Assembly: GCA_965649765.1 (NCBI GenBank)
Contig: OZ287753.1
Span: 16,678,001 to 16,742,000, forward strand
Length of the DNA: 64,000 bases
Source: Bispira polyomma
Lineage: Eukaryota
Direction: 5' to 3'
Shown here: positions 721-58,200 of the stretch, in pieces
How the letters are laid out: every line of letters starts with the position of its first letter
How positions within the stretch are numbered: the first letter of the stretch is position 1
Notes under the pieces: model-generated
Told to the model about the DNA's origin: nothing
Seen by the model: only the letters and a program-made list of their open reading frames with translations
Database searches by the model: none
Translations under genes and position numbers: made by a program

Positions 721-734
721 TACTCTGAGATGCA

Positions 735-16800: not shown

Positions 16801-19800
16801 AATTGAAACGGCTAATAAAACGTGTAAAATGCGTATACAAAAGTGAACAGAACGTGTACAAAACGGCCCATACATTGATTTTTTGTTATGTTTCCCAAAT
16901 TTTTACTTCTTTTTTTTCCCACTTGCTTACATTTATAACAAAGCAAATATAAACACAAACATGCTTAGTGTGATCACAGCATTAACTACAGGATGCATGA
17001 ATTGACCACATCAATAATGAATAGCCTGTGATAAATCCTAGTTACACCCCCCAACAACTATATGGCTTATAAAATTGACATTTCCCTAATCAACAGTCAA
17101 ACGCTAATATTGGTGATGCTTTCAACATAGAAGCTAATTTTGATTGTAGTTTGGACCTCAGGATTATGTCAAACCACTTATCATGGAGATCAGGTTCGCT
17201 GTGAATGCTCAGACCATCGACTGTTTGCACTCTTCCAAGAATTTGTAAGTTGCTCTAAGCTTACATTTGTTAAATATTATTATAAAAGAACTTATATATT
17301 ATCCTCTGGTTGTCCAAATGGTTAGTCGGAGGACAGAAATGGGTCATGACAAAAAGAGCAAAAAAGAACAAAAAATTAGACTTTCTTAAGGCTCAACTCG
17401 ATCTGAAAGTCGCAATTAAATTAGGAACAAATTCAATATCCCCTAATTTCGCCCATTTGGACAATAGAGTCCATTATTGTGGGAAGTATTGTGGTGTCAC
17501 AAAACTGCCATTCCCGAGTACCCGAACGTTGTGATTATCCGAACTAATTAATTGTCTCTTGTAGGTTTGGATAGTTAAGATTTGACATTACTTTGTACAC
17601 ATATCTTTGTAGTTTGATGCTATAGTCAGTGCACCACCGCCCATCTTTCCTGAAGTTGCTTTTGAAAGAACAGAGCTCTCTGGTTTTGTAGTAAGTTATA
17701 TATGATACATATCAAAATGTATGTTCTTTTCTGAGAATGTTAATCTAATAGTGTACATTTTTATCTACAATGTAAACAAAATCTATTAAAATAAACCTGC
17801 AAACGACACAAAACTTATTAAAGGTTTCAAAATTCAATTTGAAATATTGGTGACACGTATTATTAATGTTGAATATCAATGTAGCATGGATCTCATATTT
17901 AAGCTCCTTTACATCATAGATTGTATGTATTGCATCAATATGAATAATCATCTGTCTGTGGAATTATTTTAGGCTTTCAATTACAACAAGCCGATTGCTT
18001 TGGCTGGACATATTTTGGGCGGCATTTCACTGTTTTGTCTGATCCTCACTGTTCTTTCCCATGGTTTATTCAGGTATATATATAGTAAATATATTATCAA
18101 TTAACCATGTGTACAACTGATAAATTGATATATTTATTATTAATTAACCAATTATACAACTGAGAATTTGATACATATATTATCAATTAACTATTTATGT
18201 AACTGATAAATAAATAGATATCATCAATTAGCCATGTATACAACTGATAAATTAATACATCTATTATTAATTAACCGTGAATTCAACTGATTAATTGATA
18301 CATCTATTACTGATTAATGGTTCATTCAACTAAAAAAGTGATAAATTAATAGAAATATTGTCAATTAGCCAACTAATTAATTGTTACATATCTTATCAAT
18401 TAATCTTGTAAACAACTAAAAATGTCATACATCTATTAACCATGGATGCATATTAACCGTGAATACAATTGATATAAATTAATATATATATATTATCTAT
18501 TGACCATGGATACAAGTGATAAATTGGTACATCTATTATTAAGGGGCCCTTAAAACAACTGATAAATTGTCATATATATAGTATCAATAAACCATTTATA
18601 CAACTGATAAATTGATATATTTATTATTAATTATATACAAATAAAATAAATTGGTACATCTACTATCAACTATCTGCAACTGTGGTCCAGTCGATAACAC
18701 ATACGCTTAGTAAGACTTTATGAGGCGGTCATCTATCATTGGTTCTTATTCCCATAGGCAGGGTACAAATCGATGGGGAGGTTGATAAATGGTCATCCTG
18801 AAGTAAGATTGGGGAATGATACTTAATTGTTGTAAGTCAAGTAAGGGTTAATCAGCTATTTGAATACCAGAAAAGGCACATTAATGGGCTGAGTATAAAT
18901 TTGATTAAATACAACAATACAGTTAACCATGGATACAACTGATACATTTATTATCAATTAACCATGAATACAACTGATGAATTGATACATCTATCATCAA
19001 TCAACCAGGAATACCAGACACAAGAGGCCGTCACAGATCCTGATACATTTATGTGTCTCCCTGATTTTACTGACCATCATCTTATACTTGTCCAGTGTTC
19101 TAGTAACAACCATCACCAGATGTGTCATAGCTAACATCCTCAGGTATTCTCATTATTTTTATTTTTTTCAAAAATAAGAATGTAAATGCACAGACCTAGC
19201 TATAGTGACTATACTCATAGAGTGGCCTAAATATAGACAGTAGCATATGTAATTGTAAGGCCTTAGTCTTAACTTAGTTTTAAGCTTGAGACTTTAGTCT
19301 TTGACTTTGGCCGAAAAAAGATTTTGGTCTTAGTCTCAGTGACTGTAAGACAAGATCTTTGGCTAGTGTTAACTTTGCTCTCAACACTAATACTAACAAT
19401 AGGCAGTCTCAAATGTTTTAGACATAAATTTGAAGCTTAAGACTAAGTTAAGACTAAGACATGTGAATACGGCATCCCCAGATCAATAAGTTAAACACTA
19501 GACAGCAATGCATGTCATAAAATAATTTAAAGTTAATAAAAAAACAATTCTCCAACATGTGTGATGTCATACCTAAATTAACATTTGTTGCACCCATCAT
19601 TTCTAAGAACTTGACCATATACTCCAACTTTGTCAATACAATGTTTCTTCTTCAATTCTCTCTCTCTATATTAAATTTCCTGAAGGGATAGTTTATACTC
19701 AAAGGGAAAAAATATTCCAGATCAAGGTATATTTTTTCATATTTTGCTACAATGGCATATTTGTAAAGGTAAACACTCTTGTGAATACAATAATTTTTTT

Positions 19801-22800
19801 ATTAATTGTGTTTGATCATACATACGGTGCACATATCTTAAAAAGAACCTGTACACATATACATTTAGTCTGGGCTTCCTTTTAGCATGTTTTTCTGCCA
19901 ATTTTATCGGTCATTATTTAATATTAGGAAGTGCTTCCTTTGAACATATTTCACATAATCGGCCGACATCTGTTCCACCATAAAAATTTATCTGCAACGG
20001 AGCGAAAATATCGGGAGGGAGGTCGATATCTGAACATTCTACTCCATTCTACTCCACATCGGATAAACGAATTGCTACATCGGCTGATGTCGACTTGGAT
20101 ATTAATAAATCGGCAAACGTCGGTGACTGCTGAAAGGAAGCCCAGGCTAAGTGTAGTTAGGTATAGGAATGCTAATGTTGTCAATACATTTGCAAAGTCC
20201 GATACATGATCCCCACTGCTGCATGTTGTCTATAGATATTACCTGGTGTTTGTGAGTCTTTTCTGGAATGCCACTGAGGCCGTCAACCTCTACCTCATGT
20301 TAGTCATGGTCTTCAACACAGAGATCAGCAAATTCATTCAAAAAGCAGCTATTCTTGCATGGGGTAAGTCATGGTATTCAACACAGAGCTCATGAAATGC
20401 ATCCAAAAGGTGGCTGTTTTTGCATGGGGTAAAGTGGGTTTCTTCATGTTAGTAGTTGAAAAATATCAAGATTACAAACGTATGGTGGGCCAATATGGTA
20501 GACTAGATGAGGTATGATAGATAGGCAGGAATAGAAGGGCCATTATTTTACCTTCTTAAGTGTGATGTTGAGTTTATTTTGGTTTTATACCACTTTTAAC
20601 CTCTTAGTGGAAGTTAGATATAGTGATTTAGGAAACACAGTACCATACTAAATTCCATATATGTACTGCAAATTACACTTTTCAAGAATCTGTAAGCTTG
20701 ATCTAGTGTTTTGTTTTGATATAGACATTTATATTCATCTATAGGCATTTGTAAATATATGTCTTTATATTATGTCTGAAATAGATTTATTATTCTTATT
20801 AAATATATTTTATATCAGCCTTCAGATTGTGTCAATTTTTTTTTTATCCAACCGCCAACTGTAGGTCTTCCAGCTGTCATGATTGCCATCACTCTTGGTG
20901 TTGACAAGAAGACCTTCCATGGCCATTACATCCCTGAGGATCCGGATTCAGAGGAGAGACCAGCTAAGTGTTATTACAGGTTTGAATTAGTATAGTTTGG
21001 GTTTATTGACATTTTCAACACCTCTTGTGTGATATCATGCCGGCAAGTTCATTGGTGTAAAAAATGAGATCAACATAGTCAAGGTTTTCTGCTCTGTAAA
21101 CCACTGGCCTTCAGTAATTAACCGTAAAGTTTTTACCACATGCACAGCGGGACTGAGAATCGAAACCACAACAACTGCAGGAATGAGGGGCGAGACTGTG
21201 TTAACTTCACACCACCAAAGCCCCCATTCTAGGTTGGACTGTGTCAAGGTAACACTCTTAATACCCCAATTCCCACCTCGTCATCGGTAGGTTCAAATAA
21301 CGGCCCTGGCATGTATGTAGAAAAGTTGCCCGTATTCACGAACGTAAACTCAGCTTAAACTCATACGCAACTTAAATACAGGCCATGTGGAAATCTATGT
21401 ACATGGAAATAACTTATACTCGTGACCATTCATTTTAATAGGGCTTTCAATACTGAATTCAAATATGGAATCAGATTTTAGATATATTTGCTGTATCCAG
21501 AGTTATAGAGAATCCAGTTGAGTATGAGTTTAAGCTAGGTATACGTTCGAGAATACCAGCCCAGTGGTTTACAGTTCCTTAATTTTGACAAACTATCCTG
21601 TTCTTCTTTTCTCCACCAATAAACTGTCCTGATATAATACACAAGTGTTAAAAGCTGAAAGAGAAAATTTCAATCCAGAACCTCATCCTCATTCATCGTA
21701 ACAAATTTATGCCTTAATTTGAGCAATGAACCAATAGTATTTTATGAAGTCCAAGGTAACTTGAAATAATTAAAAAACAACAAATAAACAATTGCAACTA
21801 GACCTAGCGCATCGGAGAACCAATGCATATTTGTATCCACCAGAAAGACAAAGCACCCTTGGTAGCAAGCACTTTATCTAGCAAACACCCTAGCTTGCAC
21901 CCAAGCAAGGAGCCTATGATTTCCTGTAGGGCATTTATACTAATAACCTTAAATTGCACAAGTGGGTTTCATATTGCAAACATGTGGGACGAATACGTGT
22001 GAGATAGGCACTTTAAAGTTTGACCTACCCATTTGACCTTGCACAAGGGATCCAAAGTCAAATCTGACCACAGAAAAATATTAGCAGCCCAGGATTTCCT
22101 ATAGGTTGGTTTCACATCCCAAACCTGTACGGCCAATAATATGCACCAATAATATGTTACAGGCACTTTTAAGTTTGGCCAAGAATGACCTTGAACGAGG
22201 GGCCAAAGGTCAAATCGCACCACATCAAAAGATTCCTAGGCCATGATTTTCTATTCCAAAGATATATAGGCACTTTTAAGTCTGGCCACCTGTATTTGAC
22301 CTTGAACGAGAGGCTAAAGGTCAAATCTGAGAACATGAAAAGATTCCCAGCCCATGATTTTCTATAGGTTGGTTTGGCACTCCAAACCTGTCTGACCAAT
22401 AATAAGTTAGATATAAGCACTTTTAAGTTTGGCCATCCGCATTTGACCTTGAACGAAGGGCCCAAGATCAAATCTGACAACATCAAAAGATTCCCTGCTT
22501 ATGAATTCCTATAGGTTGGTTTCAGATCCTAATCCTCTAGGACCAATATTATAGGCAGTTTTAAGTTTGGCCATCCACATTTGACCTTGAACCAATAATA
22601 CCAATTTGGCACTCCAAACCTGTTGGACCAATAGTAAGTGAGATATAAGCACTTTTAAGTTTGGCCATCCGCATTTGACCTTGAACGAGGGGCCCAAAGT
22701 CAAAGTGGACCACATGAAAAGATTCCCAGCCCATGATTTCCTATAGCTTTGTATCAGATCCCAAACCTATAGGACCAATATTAAGCGATATATGGGCACT

Positions 22801-25599
22801 AGGGAAAGTTTGGCCAAAATCGGTCACTTGGGGTATTTTGGCACTCTATCGATGACCTTGAATAAGGAGATTCAAGGTCAAATATCTACATGCTTCTAAG
22901 AACATAAATATCCATTACACATATCACCCGTAAAGAGATTTGAATTTGAATTTGGATATTTAACGTCCACTCTAGTACCTTTTAGTAGGTTATATTGGGA
23001 CGGGTAGTTGGAAACGCTGGAGGAAACACTGCATACAGTCGGTCAAGGATCTGCAGAGAAACCAGCGGCCCACAGTAAGGAACTACCACCTTTCCCACAT
23101 AGGCATCGACGGGATTCGAACTCACGCCGCCCAGAGGTGAGAGATTAGTGATTGTGAAGCGCAATGCTTGCTAACCACTAGGCCACCGTGGCCCCACCTG
23201 TAAAGAGATTCAACCTTCTACAGCTGAGAAACAGACACAGTTAAAAGCCTGATTATTTTCAAAGAAACGCCCGTGGCAGCCATGTTGTTTGTCAAAATGA
23301 GGCTAAAATTACTCTCAGGCAAGCTTTTGTAATAAATAACATTTCCTGTAAATTTCAGGAACCTAGGTGTCACAGTTTTTGCAGGAGAGTGGTAACGGTA
23401 AAATCTCTGCACACAATGACTTGGCCGCGGCCGCGTAACAATGATTGATCCATAGTTTTCGGTGGATACAATAAGAAACATAAAAGTGAAAACAACTGAT
23501 AAGGACCCCAAAATGGACAATGTTACCTTAAAACGGGAAAGAGACTTTGTGTTTCCTTTGTAAAACCTACTAGGAAAGCTGGATCTAGAGCTTTCTCTAT
23601 TGCTGCCCGTATGTTATGGAATGGTCTCTTGGAACTTGGATCACTTAAAACACTTTTGGTATTAGGAAGATACATTTTAGAAGATGCCTCGCATCAATAA
23701 GGCGCATTAAAAATAAAAAATCCGATACAATGTTAGAAAGGCTTTAATAGTTAAACATTTAGCATTTGGTTACATACTGGGCCACCTGCAAATTTATAAA
23801 ATACTATCATATTAGGGTAACATTCTGAACACTAACCACACAAGAAACATATACTGCATGATGTGTCGTGTGTCATGATGAGTTGTATTGGATACACAAT
23901 AGTTTTTCAACTGATACAGTTATTATATTTTTATTTGTTGTCAGTATTTCCCTTCCAGATGCCAGCTAAGACCTACCACCCAGCACTTTGCCTACCTACT
24001 ACCAATGTGTGTTATTGTCCTGTTCAATATGCTGGTTTATATCAGGGTTTTAAAGGAAATCCTTGCTGTAAGGGAATTAGCAGGTGAAGGTTCTTTTATG
24101 ACCAGGCTACAGTGAAACAAACAAAAGCACATAGCAGCTATCTTTTGAAAAAAAAACAAGAAATGGCATGTTACTCCTAAAAAAGTCATTATTGTCATCA
24201 TTAAGATTGGTATTTCTAAAATTTAGATCAGTAATCATTTGCACAAATTCAATCAATAAGAGAACATTCAATTAATATTAGAAACTGCCAATGGTTTTTG
24301 CATAATATTGCTTTCTTTTGGGAACCGGGCGCCAGTTTGTTCTAATTTTGGTTAGTGACTTATTGTAGGTGGCCGTGCAGCCCAAAATAAACAGAAACTG
24401 GTCAAGGTAGTTGGTGCCATGGCAACATTAGTACTACTTGGATTACCCTGGGCATTCAGTATATTTGCAGTTATAGATCCATCAGGAGACGCAAAACTTG
24501 ACACAACAGAGACTGTATTTCAGGTATTGGGCATTTATTTACTCTTCAAATAAACTTTTCAAACATACACCGTTGTAACTTATATCTTTATGAAAATACA
24601 AAAATTTATATATTTTTCTGAAATTTATTCATAATATATTTTCTCATAAATTCTAAAACTGATGTCATATATTTCATTTTGAAATATCGACAGTTAATGT
24701 ATTTACCGTTAATATTTTATTTTCATACAGGTTCAAAATGTTGTGGGCTCAACAGGGAAGTTCTGTAACTTTGTGGATGCTTCATGCCCCCACTTTATAA
24801 CAAAGATATAATTTTCCCAACTTTTACAAAATGCACTAATTAGTGATTTGCAGCCAAAGCTCGAAAAAATTAAACTCATTTACAATTTTTGAACCATGCT
24901 TCTAAGCTCTGTAATAAGATCACACTGGTTCCTATTGTAGTTGCAGGTTTCTAAGTTGTAATGATAATACACTGGTTCCTGTTGTTAATGTAGGTTTCGG
25001 AGAACTGTAATAATATTACACTGGTTTCTGTTGTAGATGCAAATTTCCAAGAACTGTAATATTATTACACTGGTTCCCATTGTTGATGTAGGTTTTTGAG
25101 CTCTGTAATAATTATAAATGTACACTGTTTCCCGTATCAGTAGAAGCAGGTTTTTCACAACTGCAAATAATATTAAACTGGTTGCCATTGTAGAAGCACG
25201 TTTCTAAGCTCCGTAATAATATTACAATTGTTCCTGTTGTAGATAAACGTTTCTGGGCTGTGCAATAATATTACACTGGTTCCTGTATCAGTAGAAGCAG
25301 GTTTCTGAGAATGGTAATAATATTACAATGGTTGCCATTTTAGAAGCAGGTTTCTAAGCTATGTAATACTATTACACTGGTTTCCTTTTTAGGCCCTGTT
25401 TGTAGTGTTTGTCAACCTCCAGGGAGTGTTTCTATTTCTCTTCCACTGTGCACGCAGTGTCAAGGTCAGACAAGCCTGGAAAACTGTCTTCTCTGGGACT
25501 TCAACCACTGGAACCGGGAGTTCTGGAAAGGAGCATAATGCCACCGGCAGTGGAAACAGGAAGACTGCAGAAAACAAGCCCGACTCTGCACATATATAG
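7822..25599 (+). CDS. Adhesion GPCR paralog A (signal peptide-HRM-GAIN-7TM, ADGRG-like 7TM), ~844 aa
   Basis: Coding exons: 7822-8017, 9674-9921 (HRM: LC..WPET..CP..WREC..W..C), 10961-11232, 12319-12403, 13319-13469, 14190-14599, 15854-15887 (micro-exon, weak donor, least certain), 17150-17244 (GPS WTSGLC..CECSDHRLF), 17613-17690, 17973-18073 (TM1), 19009-19143 (TM2 ILIHLCVSL), 20236-20363 (TM3 WNATEAVNLYLMLV.VFN), 20865-20979 (TM4), 23959-24083 (TM5), 24369-24523 (TM6 LLGLPW), 25393-25599 (TM7 NLQGVFLFLFHC). All introns are GT-AG with compatible phases; total 2535 nt. AATAAA at 25692. Confidence 0.9.
9200..9447. mobile_element. Degenerate Helentron/HINE-like non-autonomous element
   Basis: Starts ..AGAGTCCAGACCTTTGTCAAGG and ends AAAACCTCCTTGGGAAGTGGT (degenerate subterminal inverted pair), with internal CCACCAAATTTCAT. 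The architecture resembles the element at 21796-23474. Confidence 0.4.
11885..12215 (-). mobile_element. tRNA-derived SINE with L2-type 3' tail
   Basis: Minus strand shows box A GTGGTCTAGCGG, box B GGTTCGATCC, core CCCTTGGATAAGGTACTT..TATAAATGGGTACCTGG, and tail ACGCTTTGAG..AAAGCGTTACATAAATGC..(TACATT)n. A degenerate + copy lies at ~48670-48890. Confidence 0.75.
15135..15320. mobile_element. Tc1/mariner-pogo (Tigger-like) MITE
   Basis: TIRs CAGTAGAGACTCTATTAT and, reverse-complemented, CAGTATAACCTCTATTAT; flanked by TA on both sides. Confidence 0.7.
16432..16981. mobile_element. PIF/Harbinger-type MITE
   Basis: TIRs TGCCGTGGTCACACT and revcomp TGCTGTGATCACACT; 3-bp direct TSD TTA at 16429-16431 and 16982-16984; internal palindrome AAATTTTGTGCTGCTCAAAATTT. 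Confidence 0.7.
18092..19008. repeat. ~43-bp minisatellite in gene A TM1-TM2 intron (interrupted ~18680-18920)
   Basis: Unit ~TATTATCAATTAACCATGTATACAACTGATAAATTGATACATC, roughly 13 copies plus 2 more. The last copy runs into the TM2 exon acceptor. Confidence 0.85.
19263..19458. mobile_element. Foldback/MITE-like inverted repeat element
   Basis: TTAGTCTTAACTTAGTTTTAAGCTT at the left end and AAGCTTAAGACTAAGTTAAGACTAA at the right end. Confidence 0.55.
19866..20149. mobile_element. MITE with TAG(C/T)CTGGG termini
   Basis: TAGTCTGGGCTTCCTTTTAGCA at left and TGCTGAAAGGAAGCCCAGGCTA at right (22-bp imperfect TIR); CpG-richer interior than the flanks. Confidence 0.65.
20990..21230 (-). mobile_element. 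Old tRNA-SINE copy (core related to the young SINE family)
   Basis: Minus strand reads GGTTTCGATTCTC..GCATGTGGTAAAACTT..TGGTTTACAGAGCAGAAAACCTTGAC..TGTTGAAAATGTCAATAAACCCAAAC. Related pieces at ~9490-9580 (+), ~21280-21660 (+, split by a MITE) and ~44355-44480 (-). Confidence 0.55.
21328..21563. mobile_element. MITE with ~45-bp TIRs nested in a SINE remnant
   Basis: GCCCGTATTCACGAACGTAAACTCAGCTTAAACTCATACGCAACT versus revcomp GCTGGTATTCTCGAACGTATACCTAGCTTAAACTCATACTCAACT. Confidence 0.7.
21965..22885. repeat. ~147-bp tandem repeat (about 6 copies, some deleted) inside the Helentron-type element
   Basis: Unit includes ATAGGTTGGTTT..CCAAACCTGT..GCACTTTTAAGTTTGGCC..TTTGACCTTGAACGAGGGGCCAAAGGTCAAATC..AAAAGATTCCCAGCCCATGATTTCCT. 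Spacing 22356 to 22503 is 147. Confidence 0.85.
22941..23195 (-). mobile_element. Young full-length tRNA-derived SINE (copy 1)
   Basis: Box A TGGCCTAGTGG, box B GTTCGAATCC, (AAATTC)n tail. 15-bp TSD ACC[C/T]GTAAAGAGATT at 22926-22940 and 23196-23210. Near-identical to 28902-29162. Confidence 0.9.
24901..25392. repeat. ~49-bp minisatellite (10 copies) ending at the gene A TM7 exon acceptor
   Basis: Unit ~TCTAAGCTCTGTAATAATATTACACTGGTTCCTGTTGTAGAAGCAGGTT. Confidence 0.85.
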
Positions 25600-25797
25600 C
25601 AAAGCATGGAGTATATTGGGAACCACTGGATTTTGTTTAACTAGTTGTTCATATGCTATTACACTAACCACCCCTCTCTGCTGTCCTGCACAATAAACTG
25701 TGCATCACTTATATTCTTGGGGGAAGAATAATGTCACTGGTAGTGGAAGCAAGATATTGTACCAACTATAGAAAAGCAGTTGGATTCGGTAGACCAT

Positions 25798-25799
<2 letters not shown>

Positions 25800-25838
<39 letters not shown>
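25800..25838. repeat. (TA)n microsatellite
   Basis: Directly visible; lies at the left edge of DIRS element 2. Confidence 0.9.
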
Positions 25839-25842
<4 letters not shown>

Positions 25843-25849
25843 ATAGATG

Positions 25850-42990: not shown

Positions 42991-45684
42991 GTGAGGGAGT
43001 CTATGTTATACAACAGTTTGTGTCATGAGAATTTACATAACTCTGCCAGTGCGCCTGTTCAGTATAAATGAATGGTTAATAAAAGTCCTGCATCGTTTTA
43101 CTTTTATAAGTAAACATTTAGTAGGCTTTGTTCTTAGCTTTACGGATAAAACCCTCAAGGTCTGTACTTTTGTAAATGGTTAGGTAACCATGTATCCTGC
43201 ATGACCTTTGAGTGATCGATTAGCATGTTGCTGAGGGAAAATGTTTAACTACTTTTATGTAAATGTAACCATTTGTGTAGAACTGACATGTACAGAATAT
43301 ATTCTGCAAACCTATATCTTACACTGACTTTCAAGGTTATTTATATTCTCCAAGGTGACTATTCAAGCCTATTATAGCCAAAAATAGCTCAAATTTATTT
43401 TGGGTAAACATTTTCCACTTTTACAGTATATCAATCAAGCCCAATACTTAAATACAAGCTTTTATAAAACATACCATGTAAATTAACACTGGCAGCACTA
43501 ATGTTTTGGGTTTTAGCCATTGCAAATGATTTGATTGTTTCCTGTCCCTTTAGAGAATAGTGGAAGAAATGACAAATTGGCTGTGATGAACCATTTGTAG
43601 TTAATAGCCCTATTACCTAGACAATAGAGGGCATCTTCCTTTGAAGATGATTACACCAAATAACTTGTCTAATTAGTTGTGTGAACAAGATTGTGTAACT
43701 ATAACCTTGATGACCTTGGATGATTATAAAACACATTATAATCATGATTTACATAATACTCTGGTATGGCACTGGTAAATAACAGTGGCGTAAGCCCAAA
43801 ACCCTGTTTTGCTGGGTGTAATATTAGTCTGGGTGTAATAGTAGGATTTATCTCAGAAAAGCTACATATGTGGTGTAACTCATAATGTATGAAATTCAAT
43901 TGAATATCTTTTTCTAAAAGCCTTGGTTTTCCAAGAATTATGCAAAATTTGGCACTCTGTTTGTTTAGTCTTAGACTTTAAGGTGTTCACTAAGGGTGAC
44001 AGAAAGTTGCATTTAGTTCCAATGGTTATTCTTTTCCTGGTTATTCCTGTTCTTATTTGGATATAGCATCTGGGTTAGCAATAGTGTTGGACAAATTGGT
44101 AAGATATAAATGTAATAACACAAAAGCGATGAAAAAAATCTATATAATCGATTGGCCTTCTATTATTGGCAGAAATGAAGAGATTGAGAAAGTCCATCAC
44201 GAAAGAATGTAGCAATGCATCCAAGCATTATATAAGCCATTAGAGGACAATGCTCTCTTTTCAAAATATCAATTATAAGAACGTTTTAGGATTGGGAGGA
44301 AGGGACATGGATGATAAAATGGTGACACACTTGCCTCTTTAGGGATAAAAAGGTAGTTAGTCAAGGCTTTCTGCTCTGCAAACCACTAACCTTCAAAATT
44401 CTACAGCCAACTTTTCCACATGCATGTCAGTGCCTGGATTTAAGCTAACAACGACATAGTTAGGAGGGAAATATGTTTCCAATATGTCATCAAACTCCAC
44501 ATTTATTTGTGAATGTAGAATATACCAAGTGAAATTTTCACTGAAGTTGTAAACATTTTAGTCTAGCTCAACAATCTTGTTATATAATGTCCATCTGCAC
44601 GAAATATCTTGTGCTGTTATGCAATGCAGTGATTTGGTTGATTAAACAATAACAACACGTCCCACTGTTGACAGACCTTTCTGGCAGGCACTATAAAGCA
44701 ATTGGTGTAAATGCAAGCAAATATAATCTGCAGTTTACTGATTTTTGTCTTTGTTTGATGAATCAGGAAATGACAACTAAATTGGACAGATGTTTTGTAA
44801 ACAAGTTTTGTGGGTGATATCACTTCATTGACACAGATATATATTATTATATTGTTCTTCCCTTTTATAAAATTTAATTCTGGTGGAAAAAGTAATCATT
44901 ATATATATGTCTAAAGATACATTCATAACAAAAGAAAGTGTATTACTGAATTCAATATTTTGTTAAGTGACATATTAGAAAACAAACAAAAGAAACCAAA
45001 CAACTGTAATATAAAGTACACACTTACAAAGTATAGTGTGCAACAATGTATCTCGTATTAGTGTGACACTTTACATAATAAATCTACATATTCAAAAGAC
45101 AGTAGTTTGAATAAACCTTCTTTTTTGAGTATTTAAACATTTTTCTATATTCTGCAACATTTCATCGCTTGGTAAAGGTAAGAAAGTTAAAACATAGACT
45201 ACTTGTTACCTCAGCTCCGCTGAAGTTTACTATTCCTGCATGACCTTTTAGATGCATATATTATCCTTCTAAAATTCCAGTGTCTTTACAATTAATGTCT
45301 GATCAGTCAAGATAGATGAACCTGTGTCAATATGGTGGGGGGGGACGCCTTTGCGACAATACTCTCAGTTCTGGTACCAGTCTTATGGAGGTAATTAGTT
45401 ATATAAGGCCTTTGTGCCTTTATCAGCGCCATTATTGATAATTGGTTCCAGAAGATAGAGTGTTTACAACCCACCATATATCCGCCGATTAATGATTGTT
45501 TTCTAGTTTCAGGCTGCTAACACAACCAAAAGACCAATAAAGTACCACTCATCTGCTGTAAGGTGAGCTAGCCAAGAATCTATGTAAAACCCCTCTTCAT
45601 GGTTATACCACCAGTTAAGGTGGGCAAATAGTTGTTTAGTCTTATTATATTTAAATTATGCTGTAGAATGAACAATTACATAAT

Positions 45685-47220
45685 TTGAGAGCTCTACCAC
45701 CAAATGTGCTGCTTCACTTGCAGGTATATTATTTAAACATATGTAAACAACACTGTATTTGAAGTTTATAATTCAATCATTGTAAAATAATTAAATGGAG
45801 ATTGTAAATGTACTAAATATCCCAGGATACTAAACCTCATTCTCATCGACTATTAGACCTTGCCCTTGCCCAACACAATTAACCTCTCTCTCTCACCACC
45901 TATCACCCATATATTCTCACCTAGCATAGCCTCCTTTCAACATGCCTCCTCCCTTTTTTGACACCTATCGTAGCTAGCCCCTGATTTCACCACCACCTAT
46001 CTCACATACATAGTCCCAATATAAGTTTTGCAAATATTCTAGCAAAATAGACTTGTCATCTCTGTGCTTCCAACTTGGAAGAAAACACAGTGACATGTCA
46101 TTGTCAGCATGCCTCAGCTTATGGGGGCATTTATACCCCCAGCACCTTTGAAGTATTAACTTCTTACATAAGTAGAATGTGCTGATTAGTTAGCATTAAA
46201 ATCCAACTAAAACAAGACCATATCTAGATTGTAATGGCATGTTGTTCACTTCACAATTCTGAGTAAGCTTTTATTTAACAAGAATATATATATATATATA
46301 TATAAAATGGAAGGCTTTACACCATGACACTAGTATAGCCCTGAGACAGATCCAGGGATGGTCCAGTGGGCTATAAACCCCCTGTCTCCTGCCTTTTTAG
46401 AAACTTTTTGAGCTGCGGTAAACAATCAAATTTTAACATTGAGGTTACCAATATTTTCTGGGAGTGGACCCCACAGTTACAGAATCTTGGATCCTCTCAT
46501 GAGCAGCTACTTCCTTGTAAATACCAAGTTTCATGTTGTACTTTTCTACACTTTATAACAGGCTGCCAAACTTACCCTAGCTCTGGATCCAGTCACATAG
46601 AACCCTATAGGATTCTGGTTTGTCATTAATCAATTTCTGTTTGATCATTTGATCTGGTTTAAATTAACGAGCACAGCAAGAATTTTGAACCTCTTCAAAA
46701 CTGTTATGGTATGGCCACAATCTCGTTTCAACCATAGCATCCGTAGTGATCATACCACAACTGTGAGGGCATTTGGAGGTAATTTTTGTTATTCAGGACT
46801 TTCTGTAATCATTAGTATTTGTGATCTATGCAGATAATTTGCTGCTCTCCATAAAATAATCATTGCCCACCCAATAGCATCCATGAGTTTTCTTGTTTAT
46901 TAATGGTTTTCTTTGAAATTTTAAACACAATATTTTAAGAACCTGTCTAATTCTTCGTTAAATCCACACGCCATTGTATTAGCAAAATTGCAATCTGCGA
47001 CCTCATTCCTTGTCATTTTTAACAATTCTTTGTATGTGGGACCTAGACTAAAGATCTCTTTAAGAAATTTTTTACCTGTTGTACACAAAAGATTTAGCAC
47101 AAACAGCTGTTACAAATACCAAAATACATTCATAAAATTTTAATGTATATATAATAGTTCACAGTATTATTGAACATAACACTAGACAGTGCTGCAATTC
47201 AAAACATTATCGGTTAAATT
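45685..47220 (+). pseudogene. Inverted partial duplicate of gene B (pre-GPS micro-exon, GPS exon, spacer exon, intron pieces)
   Basis: 45685-46270 is approximately the revcomp of 36060-36660, 46300-46640 of 34640-34980, and 46680-47220 of ~33650-34190. The GPS exon acceptor is mutated, Trp is TAG, and the TM1 exon is missing. Confidence 0.88.
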
Positions 47221-47229
47221 ATGGCAATC

Positions 47230-48590: not shown

Positions 48591-49207
48591 AAGTTATTAT
48601 ATATGCTGTCTCTCTGTTAAATCTGGATAAAAATAATGACTTTCATAATGTATGCAATGATCATGTATAATGGTCTCTGTGACCTAGTAGTGAGAGTGTT
48701 TCACTTTTTATCAGAGTGCTCATGGTTCAATCCTCTCTTCAGATGTGGAGATTTTACCCATGAGCAAGGGTACTTTACACAAAGGCATGGTGTATAAACA
48801 GGTACCTGTCCACAAATGTGTTTTAGTTTGTGTGTTGTATGTGGCTAGTAATCTTTTTACGGAGTAGAAAGTGAACAGCTGGTTGGCCAGAGGACAAACC
48901 CAGACTTCTATGAATAAATACAGTGCAGAAGCATACTCACTTAAGGGGAGACCAAGAATGTTAGTCAGTTTAAATCCAACGATTAAAGCAACATATACTG
49001 GCCAGAATTATATACAAACATATACATGTATACATATGTAGATTTAATATTGTAGGTCTTTATAATAAAGTCTCCATATTAATAACAAACTGTAGTTAAT
49101 GAGTAGTTATGTTGTAAACAATTAGTAACAAAACCAATATGTCTGTTACTTAGCCTAAGTCAAGTTTTTACAAAATTATTAAAAACGCACACCATTCTCT
49201 TTTATTG

Positions 49208-52200
49208 TTATGCTTTGGGTTGGTTTGCCATGTCCATATTATCAGGTTTTGAAGAAGTGGGACGCCTCATTATGTGAACATTCAGTAGAGATTTCCAGCA
49301 GGCTCTGATGTCATGGTTACGAACACAGTGGAAGAGGAAGATAAATAGACCTTGCAAGCTGATGCACACCACAAAGACTACCTGTATTTATAGAATGTAG
49401 GAATTAGATTCAGTTTTTCTGGAATATATCACATCATGAAATAACACTACAGCACCTGATAAACATCTCCAGTACATGATTCTATTGGATGACCCAAGTG
49501 ATCTATTTTTTGTACTTATCAAATAGCTTCTATGAAAGCAAATTAGACCATAGTTCACATATATTATACTAATACATTAATTTCAGGTTTTTTTTTGACT
49601 TGGGATATTTAACGTCCACTCTAGTACCTGTTTAGGTTATATTGGGACGGCTAGTTGGAAATGTTGGAGGAAACATTGCATACAGTTGATCAAGGTTCTG
49701 TACTGAAACCAGCAGCCTACAGTAAGGAACCACCACCTTTCCCACATAGGCACCAACGGGATTCAAACTCACGCCGCCCAGAGGTAAGAGACCAGTGATT
49801 GTGAAGCGCAAGATGAATTTCAGTAGCCAAATATTAATTCAAGTAAAGCAGCCTTTGTTTAAATAACGCAAGTGATCTATTATATGTACCTATCAATTAG
49901 CTTCTATAAATACAAATTAGACCACAGTTCACTTATATTATAATAATACATTAATTTCAGTGGCTGCATATTAATTCAAACAAAGATGCCTTTGTTTACC
50001 TGAATAACAATCTCCAGTCTAGACAAGTGCTTGTTTGTGTTGGCATCCACCACACCAAAAGCGCTGAACAGCCAAGGTACTCCAAGTAGTACTAAGGTTG
50101 CTAGAGCTCCAACTACTTGTGATTGCTTACTCTTTTTCTTTGCTATTGATTACAGGGGGGAACACATATTTCATTTTGCAGCAACACCTCTATTTCGAGC
50201 AGATACAACAACCTTCAGATAACATGTTTGGTAATGATACACAGGTTTTGATACATTTGTTTTAGACATTCTCGAATGCTGATGCAGGCATATATGTATC
50301 AAATATGTGGATGATGTATTTAGAGGAAATATTGGATTGAAACAAACCAGTCTAATTGCAGTACTACGTGGCATACCTGTACAAATTTCTCCTTTTCTTC
50401 CTAATTGAATAATGACTCTGAAGACTAGACAAAACATAATGATGTTATGGACCATAATGATGGACATTGGTACCACAAAGCCATAAAGTAAAGTGTTTGC
50501 CCTCAGTTGACACCTGCATACACATAGGAACATATAAAACCTAAGATATGCTAACACCTGCATATAGGTAGGAACGTATGGAACTTAAGATATGCTGACA
50601 CCTGCTGCATATTTGTAGGACCGTATGAAGGTTAAGTTATACAACACAGGCAGTCTGCTTTTAAATATATAGGCATAACTTGACATAAATTGTGTTACTC
50701 CTATGCTGTATATTTAATTGAACATAACTTTCATAAATATTGTTTACAGTAAGTAATGGTAATTAAGAAACACAAAGAGTGTTGGTTAATTACCTGAAGG
50801 AACACATGCCTTGTCCTTCACCATTAATGGAGAGTATAACATATTGTCCATGGAAAGCCTTGTAGTCTACAGCCTCACATATGCCAACCATTAATATGGG
50901 AACACCTTTTTTGAGTAAAACACAAAATGCAAATCCAACAAGGATATCAAGTCTCATTTTAATTCAGTAAAACTTAAAACTTCAGTAAAAAAATATCGAT
51001 AATCTTTCATAATACTAGTATATGTTCATTTATTCCATCAAAAAAAATCCATCGTGTAGTTGACCCACAGATATTAAGCACAATGCTCTCTCTCAGGTTT
51101 AAGAAGTTTAAAATCAGACTCAACTTTAAGTTTTTGCTCAGTTGCTATAGTGACACATTCAGATTTAAGGTAGATTAAATCCACCTTGAAAATCTGTACC
51201 ACTACAATTGATTGATTGACTTACCCCAAGCTACAGCAGTGGCCTTTAGCTTGAACCTCGATATGGTATCATTAAATACCCTCACAAGCATCAGGTACAT
51301 ATTGAAGCCTTCTATCCCATTCCAGAGTAAACTTACAAAGATTATGTAGTATCTATGACAGTAAATTACAAGTAATATGTAGTTTACAAAATATTACTTG
51401 TTATTTTGAAAATACTGTGGGATCAAGTGAATGCGACCATACAGGATTATACATTGTGACAGACTGAATATTTGGGCAAAAGGTTTAGCACTATAAAGCT
51501 ATATATGATACAAAAGTGCAAAGTACATGTCACAATTAACTTTAAATTGCATGGTATTAAATGTTGATGATAACATTAAATTACAATCATTTTAATGTAT
51601 AAGTGTATTAGTATAGAATGTAGTGCCAAAACAAATTTACCTGATGGTATTTGCAACACTGCAGCCAGCAATAGTATTTGCGAAACTATCCACAGTAAAG
51701 GTGAAGCTAATTAACATAATTAGTGAAAGGCAGAGGTGCGTCAATATCCAAGTTGGAATTCCTCGATGTGCATTCCTGTACAAATATGCCATTCTACATA
51801 ATAAAGAGTTGCTGTTATGTTAGGTTGTATTAAATGTTGTTACATAATGTATCAAAAGTATTTTAAATTTTGTCTGTACATAGCTATTTGTGACAAATAT
51901 TTTTTTGTATAACACAGGAAAATTGAGATGCTCTTGAAAATGATTATTATTTGTAAAAAATGATCAAATGCTCTTGAAAATGATTATCACTTGTAAAACA
52001 TTATCAAATCTTTAGCCTGTGTGCCACATACAAGAAAGTATTTAGAATGAGAAGAAGCGAGGCTACACATTGCAAGTTTGCTAATGCATGTGTATTCGTT
52101 GAAGAACAAAGCATGCGGGTGAAAAATACAGGTTTTTAAAAACTGTTATTTGGGATTGCAAGAATATAAAATATAGATCTGTGCCATCGTAGCAAAGCGG

Positions 52201-55200
52201 CGATAAGAATATCTATCAATTTACTTGAATTAGAAAACATTTGTGTTTAAAATATCCTAAAACCAACTTAGAGTAAAACAAGAATCCTCATCCTCTATTT
52301 TTATGCAGAGCAGCAAATTATCCACATACCAATGATTATCAAATATTACCTAAGAATACCCCCACCCGGCCACAGTTGTGCTATGATTACTAAATAATAC
52401 AATTGTTCAAACATGATTCTGGCCATACCATGAGAGTTTTTCCATTGTTTTGTACTAACCAGTTCCATCCAAGAATGACCAATGTTTAATAGTGCCGTAA
52501 CGACTCCTGTCGACGTAGTCACAGTTGGTCATCCCAAAAGAAAATACGACTTTTGTTGAATTTTACAAATATACTCAAAATATACCCTTACCTTACCACA
52601 TAATTGTTTGCTGTTTATTGTTTATAGTTCTAAACAAGCTTTTATAACTAAATGCAAATTTCAGCTGACAGTCGTTTTTCTCTGTTGGCCATATTTAACC
52701 GGAAATATAAATATTTTATTCAACAAATTTTTGGTACTATACAAAATGCAGAGAGTAAAATAAAAAATTTAAAAAAATAGCTTTAAAATTATCGTTTGGA
52801 CATTTAACTTCTAGTTATTGTAATAAATGTGATTTTGGCGCCATACCTTGACCTTACATGCACACATGCTTTATACTTTAAACATGGCAGACATGGAAAC
52901 AAAAATTGTATTAAATCCAAATGGGAAAAGCTCTGTGTGGAAAGTGTTTGGTTTTTATGAGGTGGAAAAGAAAATAATGAAGTAGAAAGTTGTCTGTTGA
53001 CTTTGCAAGGCTGAATACAAGTATTTTGGTAAGAATTTTTCACCAAAAAATAGTATCAAGTTAAAAGTACTAAAAGTAGTATATAAAGCTGAACATATAA
53101 TATGCTACTTCTGTTTGAAAAGATCTGGAAAACCTATTAAACTACGAAAGTGACATGTAAATGTAATTTAATTGTAGTATACAAGTGTATAACCTAGAAA
53201 TATATTTTATAGTTTGTTTCTGTCAAGCTATTATTAAAAGGGTTCACACAGAAATATATTTATTGATGTTTTCTTTATTGTCAACTTCAAGTAGTTTTTT
53301 ACATGGTTGGACTTTAGTTGGGACGGATTTAAATTGAGTAATTTCTATTTTAAAATGTAGAGTAAAACTACATAAATAATATCTTACTGTCTCAAGATTT
53401 TAACTTATTTATGTCCATACCAACGGCTCCAGTTTTGCTAACACACTAATCTCTACTATTCAGGGCTTCCTTTTCCATCTTTTCATACAGGAAATGCCAG
53501 TACCATGGCTACACACATTTTAAAGGCCCATACAGATGCAAAACCTGCAAAGCCAGCAGCTCAACCAACAATGGCAGAAACCTAAACCAAAATGGCTTCC
53601 CTTTCTCTCTCTAGAAAGAACTACTTGACCCAGGCAATTACCAAGTTTATTAATAAGGATTTAAGGCCGTTGTCTACTGTTGATGGGGAAGGTTTTAAGG
53701 ATTAAGGCATTTATACTTAAGAACACTGTACCCTCAAGACAAACTATAACTGCCGAACTACCAAAGCTTTTTGAAGAAACTGCTATGAAACTGAAAACAG
53801 AGATAAGTATTCTACATGACATAGCCATCACTCATGATATGTGGATAAGCCTAAATACTGAAAGCTATGGTATAATGACTTATCATTATATATCCCATGA
53901 CTGGACCCACACCAGCATACTGCAGACAACATTGCAGCTGTTAAAGATGAAACCAGAGTGGACTGGGGCTTGCCCAAGATTGCTACAGCTGTAACGGACA
54001 ATGCTAATAATGAAACGAAGGCTGTGGCCAATTTAAGTTGGTTACATGTATATTGTCTTGGGTATAATATTAACCTTGCAGTGAAAGCTGCAACAGGTAC
54101 AACCCAAGTTGGCCCGTTCTTAGGTAAGACAAGAAGACTGGTATCTTACCTCTACAAGAAACAAGAATTGTTACTACCAACAGAACATCAGGGCCACAAG
54201 TTTATTCAGGATTTCAGCACTCGCTGGAACTCAATGTTAGATATGATTGAGTGTGTCACTGAGCAAACAGCAAAAGAGGCAACTCCAATAATATCATCAG
54301 AAACTGTACCAACACTTCCCTTTGTTCTTCCAACTTTAGCAAAATTGCAAACCTTATTGTCAGACAGCGAAACAGATTCTGCAACTATAAAAAATGAAAG
54401 TTCAAATGAATTTGAATTTAAACAAGAGATGCCAAAATGATGAGGTCAAAAAGTTTTTGGTAGTCTCTTGCCTGATGCATCCTCTGTTTAAAAATTAAGA
54501 AGATAAAGCAAGTTCCAAGGATCTTTTGTTTGAGGTTTGAGTTAGGTCAAGATAACCCAAGTGTGGTCATTAAAAAGGAACCTGGGCCAGAAACCAATTT
54601 GTCAAGTTCAGTCAACATCCCACCTCTGCCAGATTTACAATTAATGCCCTTATATGTATCAGCATTACCACCAATCTAATCTAATCTAATCTAGTCGTAC
54701 TTTTATAGCGCTTAATCTTTGTACAACAAATTCTAAGGCGCAACAAACCCAAAACGTTAATCGAAAATCAAAAATAGTGGGCGGATGGAAGTCGTAACCA
54801 GGGAGACTACCGTAAATGGTTGCGACGGCCAATGTCCTTAGATGAACCAAATCACCTAACTAATAAACAGGATCCTGATGGTTCAGATGCTCAAAATGTT
54901 CATGAACCATCCACCAAGAAACACAAAGGACATTTACAGGTTTATAATTAGTTTAAAGATGTCATAGTGGTTGCTGAGAACTGTGTCCCTGGCTTAGATG
55001 ATGAAAAATAGAATGAAAAAGAAGTGGAACTGTACTTAACTGAAGAACCATCTAAAGAAGACCCACTGATATGGTGGAATAAAAGGAAGTTGTTCTACCC
55101 ATTGCTGTCAAAGGTTGCAAAAAAATATCTAGACCCACCGCCAGTAGTGTCCCAACTAAGAGAGTCTTCAGTACAGCAGGAACTATTGTGTCAAAGAGGA

Positions 55201-58200
55201 GGGCAAGCCTGTCCAGCAAAAATGATGACAAGCTGATATTTTTTAATAAAAATTTGTACAATTTATAATTTTTCTTCTGTTTGTTTTAGACATTACTAGC
55301 GTAATTTGTGACAAATAGTTTGTTTTGTATTGTATTTTTGTATTTTTTTATGAATACTGAGTAATTACTGAAAAAATATATAATCATGTGTTTTTCTTGT
55401 CATATTAAAAAATCTTCCCACACAAATCAAAAAGTTATATTTTTGGGGTTATCAGAATATCTGAGATTATATTGGCGGGTAAAATTACGGGTGAAAATTA
55501 TATTGAGCTAGATTTAGGTGAGATATAGGAGGAGATCAAAGGGAACAAATAGGTAATATATTATTGGATTTTATTGACATTATAATATATTGGGAAAAGG
55601 ATAATTAAATTTTGTGTTTCACTGCCAAGGTAAGTGACTGCCAAGTAAAATCTCAATTATCGCTAATACCACAGATATGCATACAACGATCATCTGTTTA
55701 CCGTCGATCACCAAGTCAGACTCGTCGACTTTCGAAATTTGATGCAATTTACAGCACTAATGTTCAGTATGGTTTATAAATTAGTGTAAACCACAACAAT
55801 AGTTCGTGAATGTGTTACCTATAGGCTTTAATTCAGCCCACTTACAAACTGGAAAGAAACAAACCGTATTGTGACATAACACAGCACAGTAATTAGAAGT
55901 CCACACAATGACAATGTATTCCCAATCTTGCCAAAAATGGTTAACTCCTTCTTGTAGGAAAATCCCTGAAATAGTTATAGAGGAAGGTTGTTCATATTAA
56001 TTGTTTGTAACTACATTTCTACGATATACATATATTACAGTTGTTTATTGTACATCAACCATTTTAATTTTTTTAAACAGGTTCTTTTGTATGCAACATA
56101 TTTTTTTCATGACTTAGGTTAAGAGTGTGAGAAATTGTACTCAAGATTAAAAGTAAAATATAACAGAAACCAATCAGACCAACCAGAAAGAGGTCCATTC
56201 CTCCTTTAGTGTTTTCTGTGACTGGATCCGGAGTAGGGGTAGGTTGGGGAGACTGTTAAAAGGTGTAGAAACATACAACATGACATCATAAAACTATATC
56301 TTTAGAAGGATATATCTGCTCAAAGACGCATCTAGGACTTTCTGAATGGGAGGATCCACTCCCAGAATGTTTTGTCAACATAAATAATAAAATTATGTCG
56401 TTAGACTTATGTTGCTGCCGCCACCTGGACCCCTCTTTCAGGGATCCACATATGGTACTTTGCTAGTGCCATCTTATAAAAACCTTCTATTATAGAATTG
56501 TTTTTTATGTTATTATAGTAATGAGGAAGTCCAAGTTCACATTACTCCTGTTTTAAGAACTATCCGATGGCTGCCTATTGAGTACAGAGCAATATTCAAA
56601 ACTACTACCTTAGTATATAAATATATCTCAATTCAGGCATCCCTCGGTATTTCAGTCCTTATTTGTCTCCCTATACATGTCAACGAATACAAGGCGTACT
56701 AGGACTGAAGATGCTTTATTAAGTGTCCCTTCCTTTTGTACGATCAGTTCACAAGTGAAAAAGACATTTTAACAATAGTTTCTCATATGATGCTCCTAAG
56801 CTGTGGAATGATCTGCATCGTGATATTTGCAGTACCTCCTCACTTGCCTGTTTTTGGATAAAGCTCCAAAGCTACCTATTTAGCAAGGTTTTTTCCCACC
56901 TTAGCCTCCATACCTTGTTCCCATGTTTTCACGGTGACTACCCCTGTATGTCCAATGACTATATGAAATTGTTAAAATGATTAGAATTAGAATCTGCTAG
57001 CACAGAGATATGCGCTATAAAAGTCAGATTATTATTATTCATGTTATTGATTTCAATTCTGAAAGGACACTGTCATATTGGAAATATGTAAAGCTTTCAT
57101 AGATTGGTGGATAGCAAGCGACCCAGCCAAATTGAGGGGTGTCAGTCACACTGTGCACCAAAGTCTTTTTTAAGAGACCACCCATGTTAAAACTTTGAAA
57201 ACCCAATATTGCAAAGTTAACAACAGGCTATTACAATCTATATATCTTGGTTTAATTGGGATTTTAGTGCTAACTATTCGGCGTGTAGCCATTGCTATGT
57301 AAGAGAAACACCTTTATACTTACATGTCGAGGGAGAATAAATATCCCATAAGCTGAGGCATGCTGACAGCGACATGTTAGTAGGTCTTCTTTCAAGGTGG
57401 AAGCACAGGGCTCACTGGTCCATTTTGCTAAATGATCTGCCACAACATATATTGGAATATACTATACAGTTAAGCTAAGATGTGATGTTGCAGTGATTTC
57501 TGTGGATCGCCTAATAAACATAAAGTGAAATATTGTTGCTTAAAAATCTTTTAAAGATTTTTATCAATTTTAAGACCCAGGTTAAAATTCTTAATGCGGC
57601 AGAAAGGATGTGGCAGACGAGGTTTAGTTTGAAAACATTTGTAACGTTTAATCCTCAGATTTCAGTTATTACTTATAAACTTTAACAGGGGCAATCCATG
57701 ATATTTCTTGAAATGATCATGATGAAACACTTAGAAATCAAACCGCCAGTGCTAGTAAAGTATCCATTGTTTATGCTTACTTGTTGAATATGTGTTTTTA
57801 GTCTCGATCTCTGATCGAATACACCGTTTTATCATTCAACAGCCCTCCTACCTTGCTTTCTTCTCTCCTTCAGGAACCTAAAAAGAGGCAACAAACTCTG
57901 TTTCTTTTGTTAAGCCCTCCAGGAAGGCGGAATCCAGATCTTTCTCCATTGCAGCTCCCTTGTTATGGAACATTCTTCAAGTCGACCACAGATCATTAAA
58001 CACACTTATCGGTTTTAGAAAAAAGCTTAAACATCCTTCCGTGTAACTTTGCTATGTCCATGGATCAAACAGTTGGATCACTGATTCTGCTTTTGCGCTT
58101 TAGAAGATGCCCAGCATCAATAAAGCACATTAAAAATGCATATTAATAATAATCCTCAGCTAATGTTTTACAGAAGAGTATGGTGAATACAAAACATGTA

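What the first reader, a model, noticed from the sequence alone, without database searches (positions are those of the whole stretch)
17198..57380. GPS cleavage triad differs in each paralog: D-H-R (A), H-A-L (B), H-A-S (C)
Seen, aligned on CxC: A is CECS-DHR-LF (17212-17220), B is CHCH-HAL-AF (TTA codon at 36229-36231), C is CRCQ-HAS-AY (TCA codon at 57354-57356). Established: GAIN autoproteolysis needs His(-2) and a Ser/Thr/Cys nucleophile at +1. Inference: only C can self-cleave, B lost cleavage through a single TCA>TTA change, and A lost it independently. The cluster is a natural cleavable versus non-cleavable series.
Basis: partly seen in the sequence, partly recalled or inferred. Interest (0 to 1): 0.72.

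Follow-up and report, generated by a model that had tools for sequence, protein, structure and literature searches.

The report
Adhesion receptor family that lost self-cleavage
The three neighbouring adhesion receptors do differ at their self-cutting site, but they belong to an old invertebrate receptor family in which nearly every member lacks that site, so the one copy that looks cuttable likely regained the motif by drift and is predicted to cut poorly or not at all.

Summary
Observation confirmed: A D-H-R, B H-A-L (TTA), C H-A-S (TCA), each in an intact spliced HormR-GAIN-7TM gene model. B's TTA is in read contigs of two samples (possibly the assembly's source). A missed fourth, broken, inverted copy D, closest to B, keeps TCA, so TCA>TTA in B is well polarised. 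The rest of the reading fails. A, B and C belong to a clade of ADGRG-related receptors (13 genes here, plus starfish, crinoid, acorn worm and two nemertean proteins; 100/100). 17 of 18 lack H-x-S/T; ten paralogs elsewhere in this genome all have Gly at +1. B+C nest inside (AU p=0.0004), so A did not lose the site on its own; C is the exception, most simply a re-acquired motif. C lacks the His-orienting Phe (C-x-F-W) and the Gly of Gly-Cys that 40 and 42 of 42 canonical relatives keep, so cleavage is doubtful. The clade also lost the ECL2 Trp and Met3.47 used in tethered agonism. Mixed cleavable/uncleavable paralogs are known (ADGRF; about 30% of vertebrate aGPCRs). The residual interest is the apparently undescribed clade and a possible regained site.

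The parts
7822..25599 (+). Gene A: adhesion GPCR, 16 exons, 850 aa; signal peptide-like start, HormR, GAIN (with a Thr-rich insert), long linker, 7TM
   Evidence: hand-built GT-AG model, open frame; HRM and 7tm_2 Pfam hits on exons; 28% identity to B
15567..15618 (+). A small exon with the Cys that in canonical GAIN starts C-x-F-W; here C-S-T-L (no Phe, no Trp)
17150..17244 (+). A GPS exon; triad D-H-R at 17212-17220
17613..17690 (+). A linker exon (Pro-rich) between GPS exon and TM1 exon
   Evidence: homologous position in B and C
31319..41832 (-). Gene B: adhesion GPCR, 15 exons, 802 aa, intact
   Evidence: 73% aa identity to C; 7TM dN/dS vs C 0.18
36620..36662 (-). B small exon, C-A-A-S in place of C-x-F-W
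36199..36311 (-). B GPS exon; triad H-A-L at 36237-36229 (TTA at 36231-36229); Leu in place of the Gly of Gly-Cys
34669..34737 (-). B linker exon (Pro/Thr-rich)
45676..47216 (+). Copy D: inverted, broken partial duplicate of the B/C type covering the small exon, GPS exon and linker exon; H-A-S (TCA) at 46108-46116; stop codon in place of the GPS Trp, splice sites lost, a one-base insertion after the motif, TM1 exon deleted
49208..62298 (-). Gene C: adhesion GPCR, 15 exons, 797 aa, intact
58339..58381 (-). C small exon, C-A-A-S-Y in place of C-x-F-W
57324..57436 (-). C GPS exon; triad H-A-S at 57362-57354; Pro in place of the Gly of Gly-Cys
56184..56252 (-). C linker exon (Pro/Thr-rich)

Best explanation
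A, B and C are intact members of an old invertebrate clade of ADGRG-related adhesion GPCRs in which 17 of 18 sampled members lack the H-x-S/T triad, and C's H-A-S is likely a motif re-acquired by drift in a GAIN domain that is predicted to cleave poorly or not at all. Shown: the triads, the clade, the loss across the clade of the C-x-F-W Phe/Trp, of the ECL2 Trp and of Met3.47, the longer GPS-to-TM1 linker, weaker constraint on the GAIN/GPS than on the 7TM between B and C. Inferred: the clade's ancestor gave up autoproteolysis before protostomes and deuterostomes split; the GAIN kept its fold as a scaffold with the last strand covalently attached; positions -2 and +1 then drifted among small or one-step residues (Asp, Gly, Ala, His; Gly, Ala, Asp, Ser); His and Ser came together in the B/C/D ancestor; B later changed TCA to TTA at little cost. 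The receptors would signal uncleaved, probably through ligand binding to HormR/GAIN or to the altered 7TM pocket rather than through a released Stachel.
For: TM3-exon search of the genome gave 13 loci of one type; the GPS of the 10 outside the window reads GLG, GLG, GPG, STG, GTG, GPG, EQG, GPG, APG, GPG: 10 of 10 without His, all Gly at +1. The five best-matching full-length relatives in a 1.84-billion-protein HMMER scan read VLD (Acanthaster), ILG (Saccoglossus), DLD (Antedon), FYA (Lineus), FSA (Tubulanus) (names). A 7TM-only tree (GPS not used) groups all 18 at 100/100 against 17 canonical-triad receptors; the 13 own genes 100/99; B+C 100/100 inside. Placing B,C outside the other 16 is rejected, p-AU 0.0004 (group named after seeing the tree). 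His at -2: 2 changes on the tree, against 4-5 independent losses if retained (and my count on that tree). Accessory determinants: 40 of 42 canonical-triad long relatives have C-x-F/Y-W and 42 of 42 W-x-x-x-G-C; 0 of 8 aligned clade members have the Phe-Trp and A, B, C have L, L, P for the Gly; candidate small exons in 5 of the 10 paralogs read C-V-K/H. PMC13062082: H-X-S/T is not sufficient; this Phe orients the His; this Gly is strictly conserved in cleaved human receptors. 7TM: Met3.47 to Asn 18/18 (canonical Met 17/17); residue after the ECL2 Cys is Q/T/R in 18/18 (canonical W 12, F 5); these residues serve tethered agonism (PMC9046087; PMC9489211). B vs C dN/dS: 7TM 0.18, HormR 0.25, GAIN 0.57, GPS exon 0.74, linker 0.89; GAIN+GPS+linker vs 7TM Fisher p=4e-6. 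A relative (P0029) folds as HormR-GAIN-7TM (pLDDT 71.8; Foldseek to 4dlo 3.8e-13, 8oek 3e-12).
Against: No biochemical data; loss of the Phe lowered but did not abolish cleavage of ADGRL1, and B3 R855H gained 6.5% cleavage without it, so C may be partly cleaved. Ala at -1 is not disqualifying by itself (H-A-T in 4 of 42 canonical relatives). The order among A, B+C and the two Gly clades is weakly supported (85/61, 72/62), and only five non-own full-length members were found (two word-index searches added none), so repeated loss is not excluded. The GPS exons of 4 of the 10 paralogs were assigned on weak scores (E 4e-6 to 0.46) plus position and strand. Raised GAIN dN/dS could also reflect diversifying selection on a ligand-binding ectodomain. 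The C-x-F-W equivalence rests on a sequence alignment, not on a model of C. W6.53 and F/Y at +3 are kept, so Stachel-type activation is not excluded.
Confidence: 0.6

Rival explanations
1. One reading: C is truly self-cleaving, having kept the ancestral triad; B lost it by TCA>TTA; A and the others lost it separately.
For: C has H-x-S and Tyr at +3; D confirms TCA as the B/C/D ancestral codon; loss of a triad is easier than gain; A's Asp is one base from His.
Against: Needs 4-5 independent losses of His plus loss of the Phe, Trp and Gly around a site kept active; GPS exon dN/dS 0.74 between B and C; B stays intact and constrained in its 7TM after losing Ser.
Confidence: 0.12
2. C re-evolved a working cleavage site: His and Ser were re-acquired in the B/C/D ancestor and give real (perhaps partial) autoproteolysis, later lost in B.
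For: Nesting of B+C in a triad-less clade; both catalytic residues in correct register; partial cleavage without the Phe is documented (B3 R855H 6.5%); a Tyr two places beyond the Trp position in C (C-A-A-S-Y) might stand in for the Phe.
Against: Accessory residues absent; B lost Ser without visible harm; no sign of constraint on the GPS exon; the 7TM pocket lacks the ECL2 Trp and Met3.47, so cleavage would have little to trigger.
Confidence: 0.2
3. B's TTA is an assembly error or a segregating allele, so B and C do not differ.
For: Single-base difference; only 2 samples of 1 study checked, possibly the assembly's source; contigs drop rare variants.
Against: 3 of 3 runs give a contig identical over 301 bases, depths 95, 21, 15; B differs from C/D at two more motif codons (CAT for CAG, TTT for TAT), so this is ordinary divergence.
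Confidence: 0.08

Closest known systems
ADGRG2/G4/G6 (GPR64, GPR112, GPR126)
   Same: Best PDB sequence hits of the clade's TM2-TM3 exon: ADGRG2 E=4.7e-14, G6 1.4e-11, G4 1e-10; HormR-GAIN-7TM order; Foldseek matches of a relative's model to ADGRG2 7TM and Gpr126 ectodomain.
   Different: Separate clade (100/100) from canonical ADGRG-like receptors; very short N-terminus before HormR; no triad in 17 of 18; no C-x-F-W; linker +1 to TM1 Gly 41-48 residues vs 23-31 (median 28.5, n=36); ECL2 C-Q/T/R plus an extra ECL2 Cys; Met3.47 to Asn.
ADGRF cluster (GPR110/F1, GPR116/F5 cleaved; GPR111/F2, GPR115/F4 uncleaved)
   Same: Related paralogs differing in GPS consensus and cleavage: F2 and F4 lack a consensus GPS and are uncleaved, F5 needs cleavage (passages of PMC9489211; PMC9563031).
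   Different: In ADGRF the cleaved state is the background; here non-cleavable is the background and the triad is the exception.
ADGRB2/BAI2 and ADGRB3/BAI3
   Same: HormR-GAIN; B2 carries HLS yet is uncleaved for lack of Phe S10.49 and the Gly before Cys S12.50 (PMC13062082), the same two deficits C shows.
   Different: Unrelated subfamily; ADGRB keeps the following Trp and has long TSR-bearing N-termini (recalled).

Membership tests
Adhesion GPCR (class B2) | Secretin-type 7TM | tested here: met
   7tm_2 hits on separate exons, E 0.0008-0.06, below cut-off singly; PDB hits are all aGPCRs; tree
Adhesion GPCR (class B2) | GAIN domain directly before TM1 | tested here: met
   GPS Pfam hit for B, C; profile of 39 canonical ectodomains finds A, B, C at E 2e-7 to 2e-9 over HormR and subdomain A, subdomain B weak; fold shown for relative P0029 only, not for A-C
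Cleavage-competent GAIN | His(-2) and Ser/Thr/Cys(+1) | tested here: inconclusive
   met in C (and dead copy D); not met in A or B
Cleavage-competent GAIN | Phe/Tyr S10.49 (C-x-F-W) stacking on the His | tested here: not met
   C-S-T-L in A, C-A-A-S in B and C; 40 of 42 canonical relatives have it; by alignment only
Cleavage-competent GAIN | Gly before Cys S12.50 | tested here: not met
   Leu, Leu, Pro in A, B, C; 42 of 42 canonical relatives have W-x-x-x-G-C
Cleavage-competent GAIN | Observed NTF/CTF processing | not testable with these tools
   needs expression and blotting
Stachel-activated aGPCR | T-x-F-x-x-L-M consensus | tested here: inconclusive
   F/Y at +3 kept; +6/+7 are F-I (B, C) or F-Q (A) (consensus from PMC13197933 section 9)
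Stachel-activated aGPCR | ECL2 Trp after the disulfide Cys and Met3.47 core | tested here: not met
   Gln and Asn in A, B, C; 0 of 18 clade members keep either; the TM6 Trp (6.53) is kept in all 15 that have TM6 in the alignment
ADGRG (vertebrate-type G2/G4/G6 orthology) | Falls within the canonical ADGRG-like clade on a 7TM tree | tested here: not met
   separate clade, 100/100; outgroup limited to ADGRG-like hits, midpoint root, so sister status is not shown

The most novel reading that the evidence does not exclude
An undescribed bilaterian adhesion-GPCR subfamily abandoned autoproteolysis and tethered agonism wholesale more than half a billion years ago, and within it paralog C has re-evolved a working GPS cleavage site, with B as its one-nucleotide natural knockout.
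Probability: 0.15. Interest if true: 0.78.

Novelty: new variant of a known kind. Interest (0 to 1): 0.42.

Why it matters
Why many aGPCRs self-cleave and others do not is listed as open (PMC13197933 section 10). A whole clade that lost the triad, the His-orienting Phe, the ECL2 Trp and Met3.47 together is a natural test of whether cleavage and tethered agonism are lost as one package, and a place to look for ligand-driven activation of uncleaved receptors. B and C (73% identical, Leu vs Ser) remain a clean pair for asking whether a bare triad suffices in a degenerate GAIN.

Tried and rejected
No RNA holder listed for B; no evidence either way on expression. Reads were laid on B's GPS exon only; A, C and D were not checked in reads. 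Word-index protein searches: one search found nothing, only the query, another the query and P0025; too insensitive to widen the clade. PF01825 search of the genome returned 11 matches, none from the window; used only to obtain a canonical outgroup. 20 kb on either side of the window hold no further paralog at tblastn E 0.01. Alternative register for A (H-R-L) considered: still no nucleophile. B and C as haplotypes rejected: dS 0.35. B as pseudogene rejected: open frame, splice sites intact, 7TM dN/dS 0.18. GPS exon of B/C borrowed from a canonical gene rejected by eye: it shares K-W-T-S and F/Y-G with paralog g12773 and lacks Gly-Cys. hhalign of A and B/C ectodomains recovered HormR (and helices for A) but not subdomain B. 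Spliced A, B, C were not folded. Earlier-findings look-ups returned nothing. Paper searches for this clade or for a regained GPS found no description; the sequence supplement of PMC6900090, whose tree includes Saccoglossus, Acanthaster and Lingula aGPCRs and unnamed invertebrate clusters, could not be read, so the clade may already appear there.
Full report
1. Observation. Hand-built GT-AG models give open frames: A 7822-25599, 16 exons, 850 aa; B 41832-31319, 15 exons, 802 aa; C 62298-49208, 15 exons, 797 aa. B and C are 73% identical, A and B 28%. Single exons hit Pfam HRM, GPS (B, C; not A) and 7tm_2 below the curated cut-offs. The models are not RNA-confirmed; no RNA holder was listed.

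B's TTA: one contig in each of 3 of 3 runs (2 samples, 1 study, possibly the assembly's source) covers 36170-36470 with no differing letter. This removes an assembly-only error but not a rare allele.

2. A fourth copy. Self-comparison of the window shows an inverted partial duplicate, D, at 45676-47216, also returned by the genome DNA search. It is dead: a stop at the GPS Trp, lost splice sites, an inserted base, TM1 exon missing. It is 81% identical to B and 74% to C, B and C 73%; over a shared block the sites unique to C, D and B number 40, 22 and 16. D and C share CAT GCC TCA GCT TAT; B has CAT GCC TTA GCT TTT.

3. The wider family reverses the story. A search of the genome with B's TM3 exon gave 13 loci (a lower bound). 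I fetched the 10 outside the window and located their GPS exons: GLG, GLG, GPG, STG, GTG, GPG, EQG (one extra residue), GPG, APG, GPG. Ten of ten lack His and have Gly at +1; four of the ten were assigned on weak scores plus position. A profile search of 1.84 billion proteins returned 150 rows, most of them short fragments; the five long proteins that score best against A, B and C are from Acanthaster, Saccoglossus, Antedon, Lineus and Tubulanus and read VLD, ILG, DLD, FYA, FSA. Of the other long rows 42 carry a canonical triad (HLT 33, HAT 4, HMT 3, HTT 1, HLS 1); the rest had no readable GPS and were left out.

A tree on 7TM segments only (35 rows: 13 own genes, those 5, one canonical own gene, 16 of the 42 canonical relatives) joins the 18 at 100/100. 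The 13 own genes form a clade (100/99), B+C a clade within it (100/100); A is not their sister. Holding B and C outside the other 16 is rejected (p-AU 0.0004; hypothesis named after seeing the tree). His at -2 needs 2 changes; keeping it from the ancestor needs 4-5 losses by my count. The root is a midpoint and the outgroup is limited to ADGRG-like hits. Inference: the triad was lost in the clade's ancestor, shared by protostomes and deuterostomes, and H-A-S is the exception. A's Asp and the Gly, Ala, Glu, Val and His seen at -2 are all one base from an Asp codon, which makes drift back to His easy (from the genetic code).

4. Can C cleave? PMC13062082 (abstract and 12 passages read) shows that H-X-S/T is not sufficient: ADGRB2 with HLS is uncleaved; a Phe (S10.49) stacking on the His and the Gly before Cys S12.50 mark cleaved receptors; restoring His alone in ADGRB3 gave 6.5%, His plus Phe 24.5%. 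I take S10.49 to be the Phe of C-x-F-W (recalled numbering, consistent with the passages). Among the 42 canonical relatives 40 have C-x-F/Y-W and 42 W-x-x-x-G-C; none of the 8 clade members aligned has Phe-Trp, and A, B, C have Leu, Leu, Pro for the Gly. C therefore resembles ADGRB2. Against this: partial cleavage without the Phe is documented, H-A-T occurs in 4 canonical relatives, and C has a Tyr two places past the Trp position. Between B and C, dN/dS is 0.18 in the 7TM, 0.25 in HormR, 0.57 in GAIN, 0.74 in the GPS exon, 0.89 in the linker (Fisher p=4e-6 pooled, 0.004 for GPS+linker): both genes are maintained, the GPS is loosely held.

5. The 7TM changed too. All 18 have Asn for Met3.47 (canonical Met 17/17), Gln/Thr/Arg after the ECL2 disulfide Cys (canonical Trp 12, Phe 5) and an extra ECL2 Cys (residue numbering by my alignment). 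Met3.47 belongs to the core under W6.53 (PMC9046087 passages) and the ECL2 Trp is needed for Stachel activation (PMC9489211 passages). The +1-to-TM1 distance is 48 in B and C and 41-44 in three relatives against 23-31 in 36 canonical ones (not measurable by this rule in A, P0045, P0059), and has its own Pro/Thr-rich exon here. W6.53 and the aromatic at +3 persist. The GAIN fold is kept in relative P0029 (AlphaFold mean pLDDT 71.8, pTM 0.49; Foldseek 4dlo 3.8e-13, 8oek 3e-12, 6v55 7e-11). Most likely these receptors work uncleaved, with the last GAIN strand as structure rather than agonist (inference).

6. What is known. Paralogs that differ in cleavage are familiar: ADGRF2, F4 and CELSR1 lack a consensus GPS while ADGRF5 needs cleavage (passages); 30.6% of 13,611 vertebrate aGPCR sequences lack His and/or Ser/Thr (PMC13470171 passages). 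Invertebrate-only aGPCR clusters are acknowledged in PMC6900090 (passages and section 12), whose passages do not mention cleavage; its sequence supplement was unreadable. Three searches (listings only) found no account of this clade or of a regained GPS. PMC13197933 sections 9 and 10 supplied the consensus motifs; PMC8584163 (passages) and PMC12488864 (abstract) added nothing decisive.

7. Verdict. Observation confirmed; interpretation partly supported. The finding as written is ordinary. What is really there is a local piece of an expanded, old, triad-less ADGRG-related clade, with one lineage that probably drifted back to H-x-S. Interest 0.42; new variant of a known kind.

Noticed in passing
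window 45676-47216 (+): Inverted, broken partial duplicate of the B/C-type gene between B and C, retaining H-A-S.
   Followed up: yes
G000 C6 ~38.57-38.65 Mb, C6 ~75.78-75.93 Mb, C14 ~2.55-2.59 Mb, C13 ~4.30 Mb, C6 ~12.77 Mb (L015-L044): Ten more members of the clade in small clusters, all with Gly at +1; in the seven on C6 the TM2 and TM3 exons are one exon (intron absent), unlike A, B, C and the C13/C14 genes.
   Followed up: partly
window 14190-14599 (+): Gene A carries a poly-Thr/Pro insert flanked by extra cysteines inside its GAIN subdomain B exon, absent from B and C; possible O-glycosylated loop.
   Followed up: no
window 20368-20433 (+): A 65-base tandem copy of the end of A's TM3-TM4 exon, with its own donor-like site, directly after the true donor.
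   Followed up: no
window 338-4400 (-) and 26300-29700: Two decayed retroelement-like stretches with reverse-transcriptase-like and, in the second, tyrosine-recombinase-like frames (DIRS/Ngaro-like by eye, from ORF translations; label recalled).
   Followed up: no
window 53665-54440 (+), inside the intron after C's TM1 exon: Broken hAT-like transposase remnant (by eye); LINE-type reverse-transcriptase remnants at 34960-35800 and 47468-48465.
   Followed up: no
window 22945-23196, 28901-29157, 49589-49811: A ~250-base interspersed repeat in three copies (88-94% identical), also seen in several fetched loci.
   Followed up: no
L006/L010/L011 (G000 C1 ~46.882 Mb): A canonical H-L-T GPS exon followed by several degenerate tandem copies of itself.
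   Followed up: no
P0095, P0105, P0108, P0111: Otherwise canonical ADGRG-like relatives with H-A-T, showing Ala at -1 occurs with an intact C-x-F-W and Gly-Cys.
   Followed up: partly
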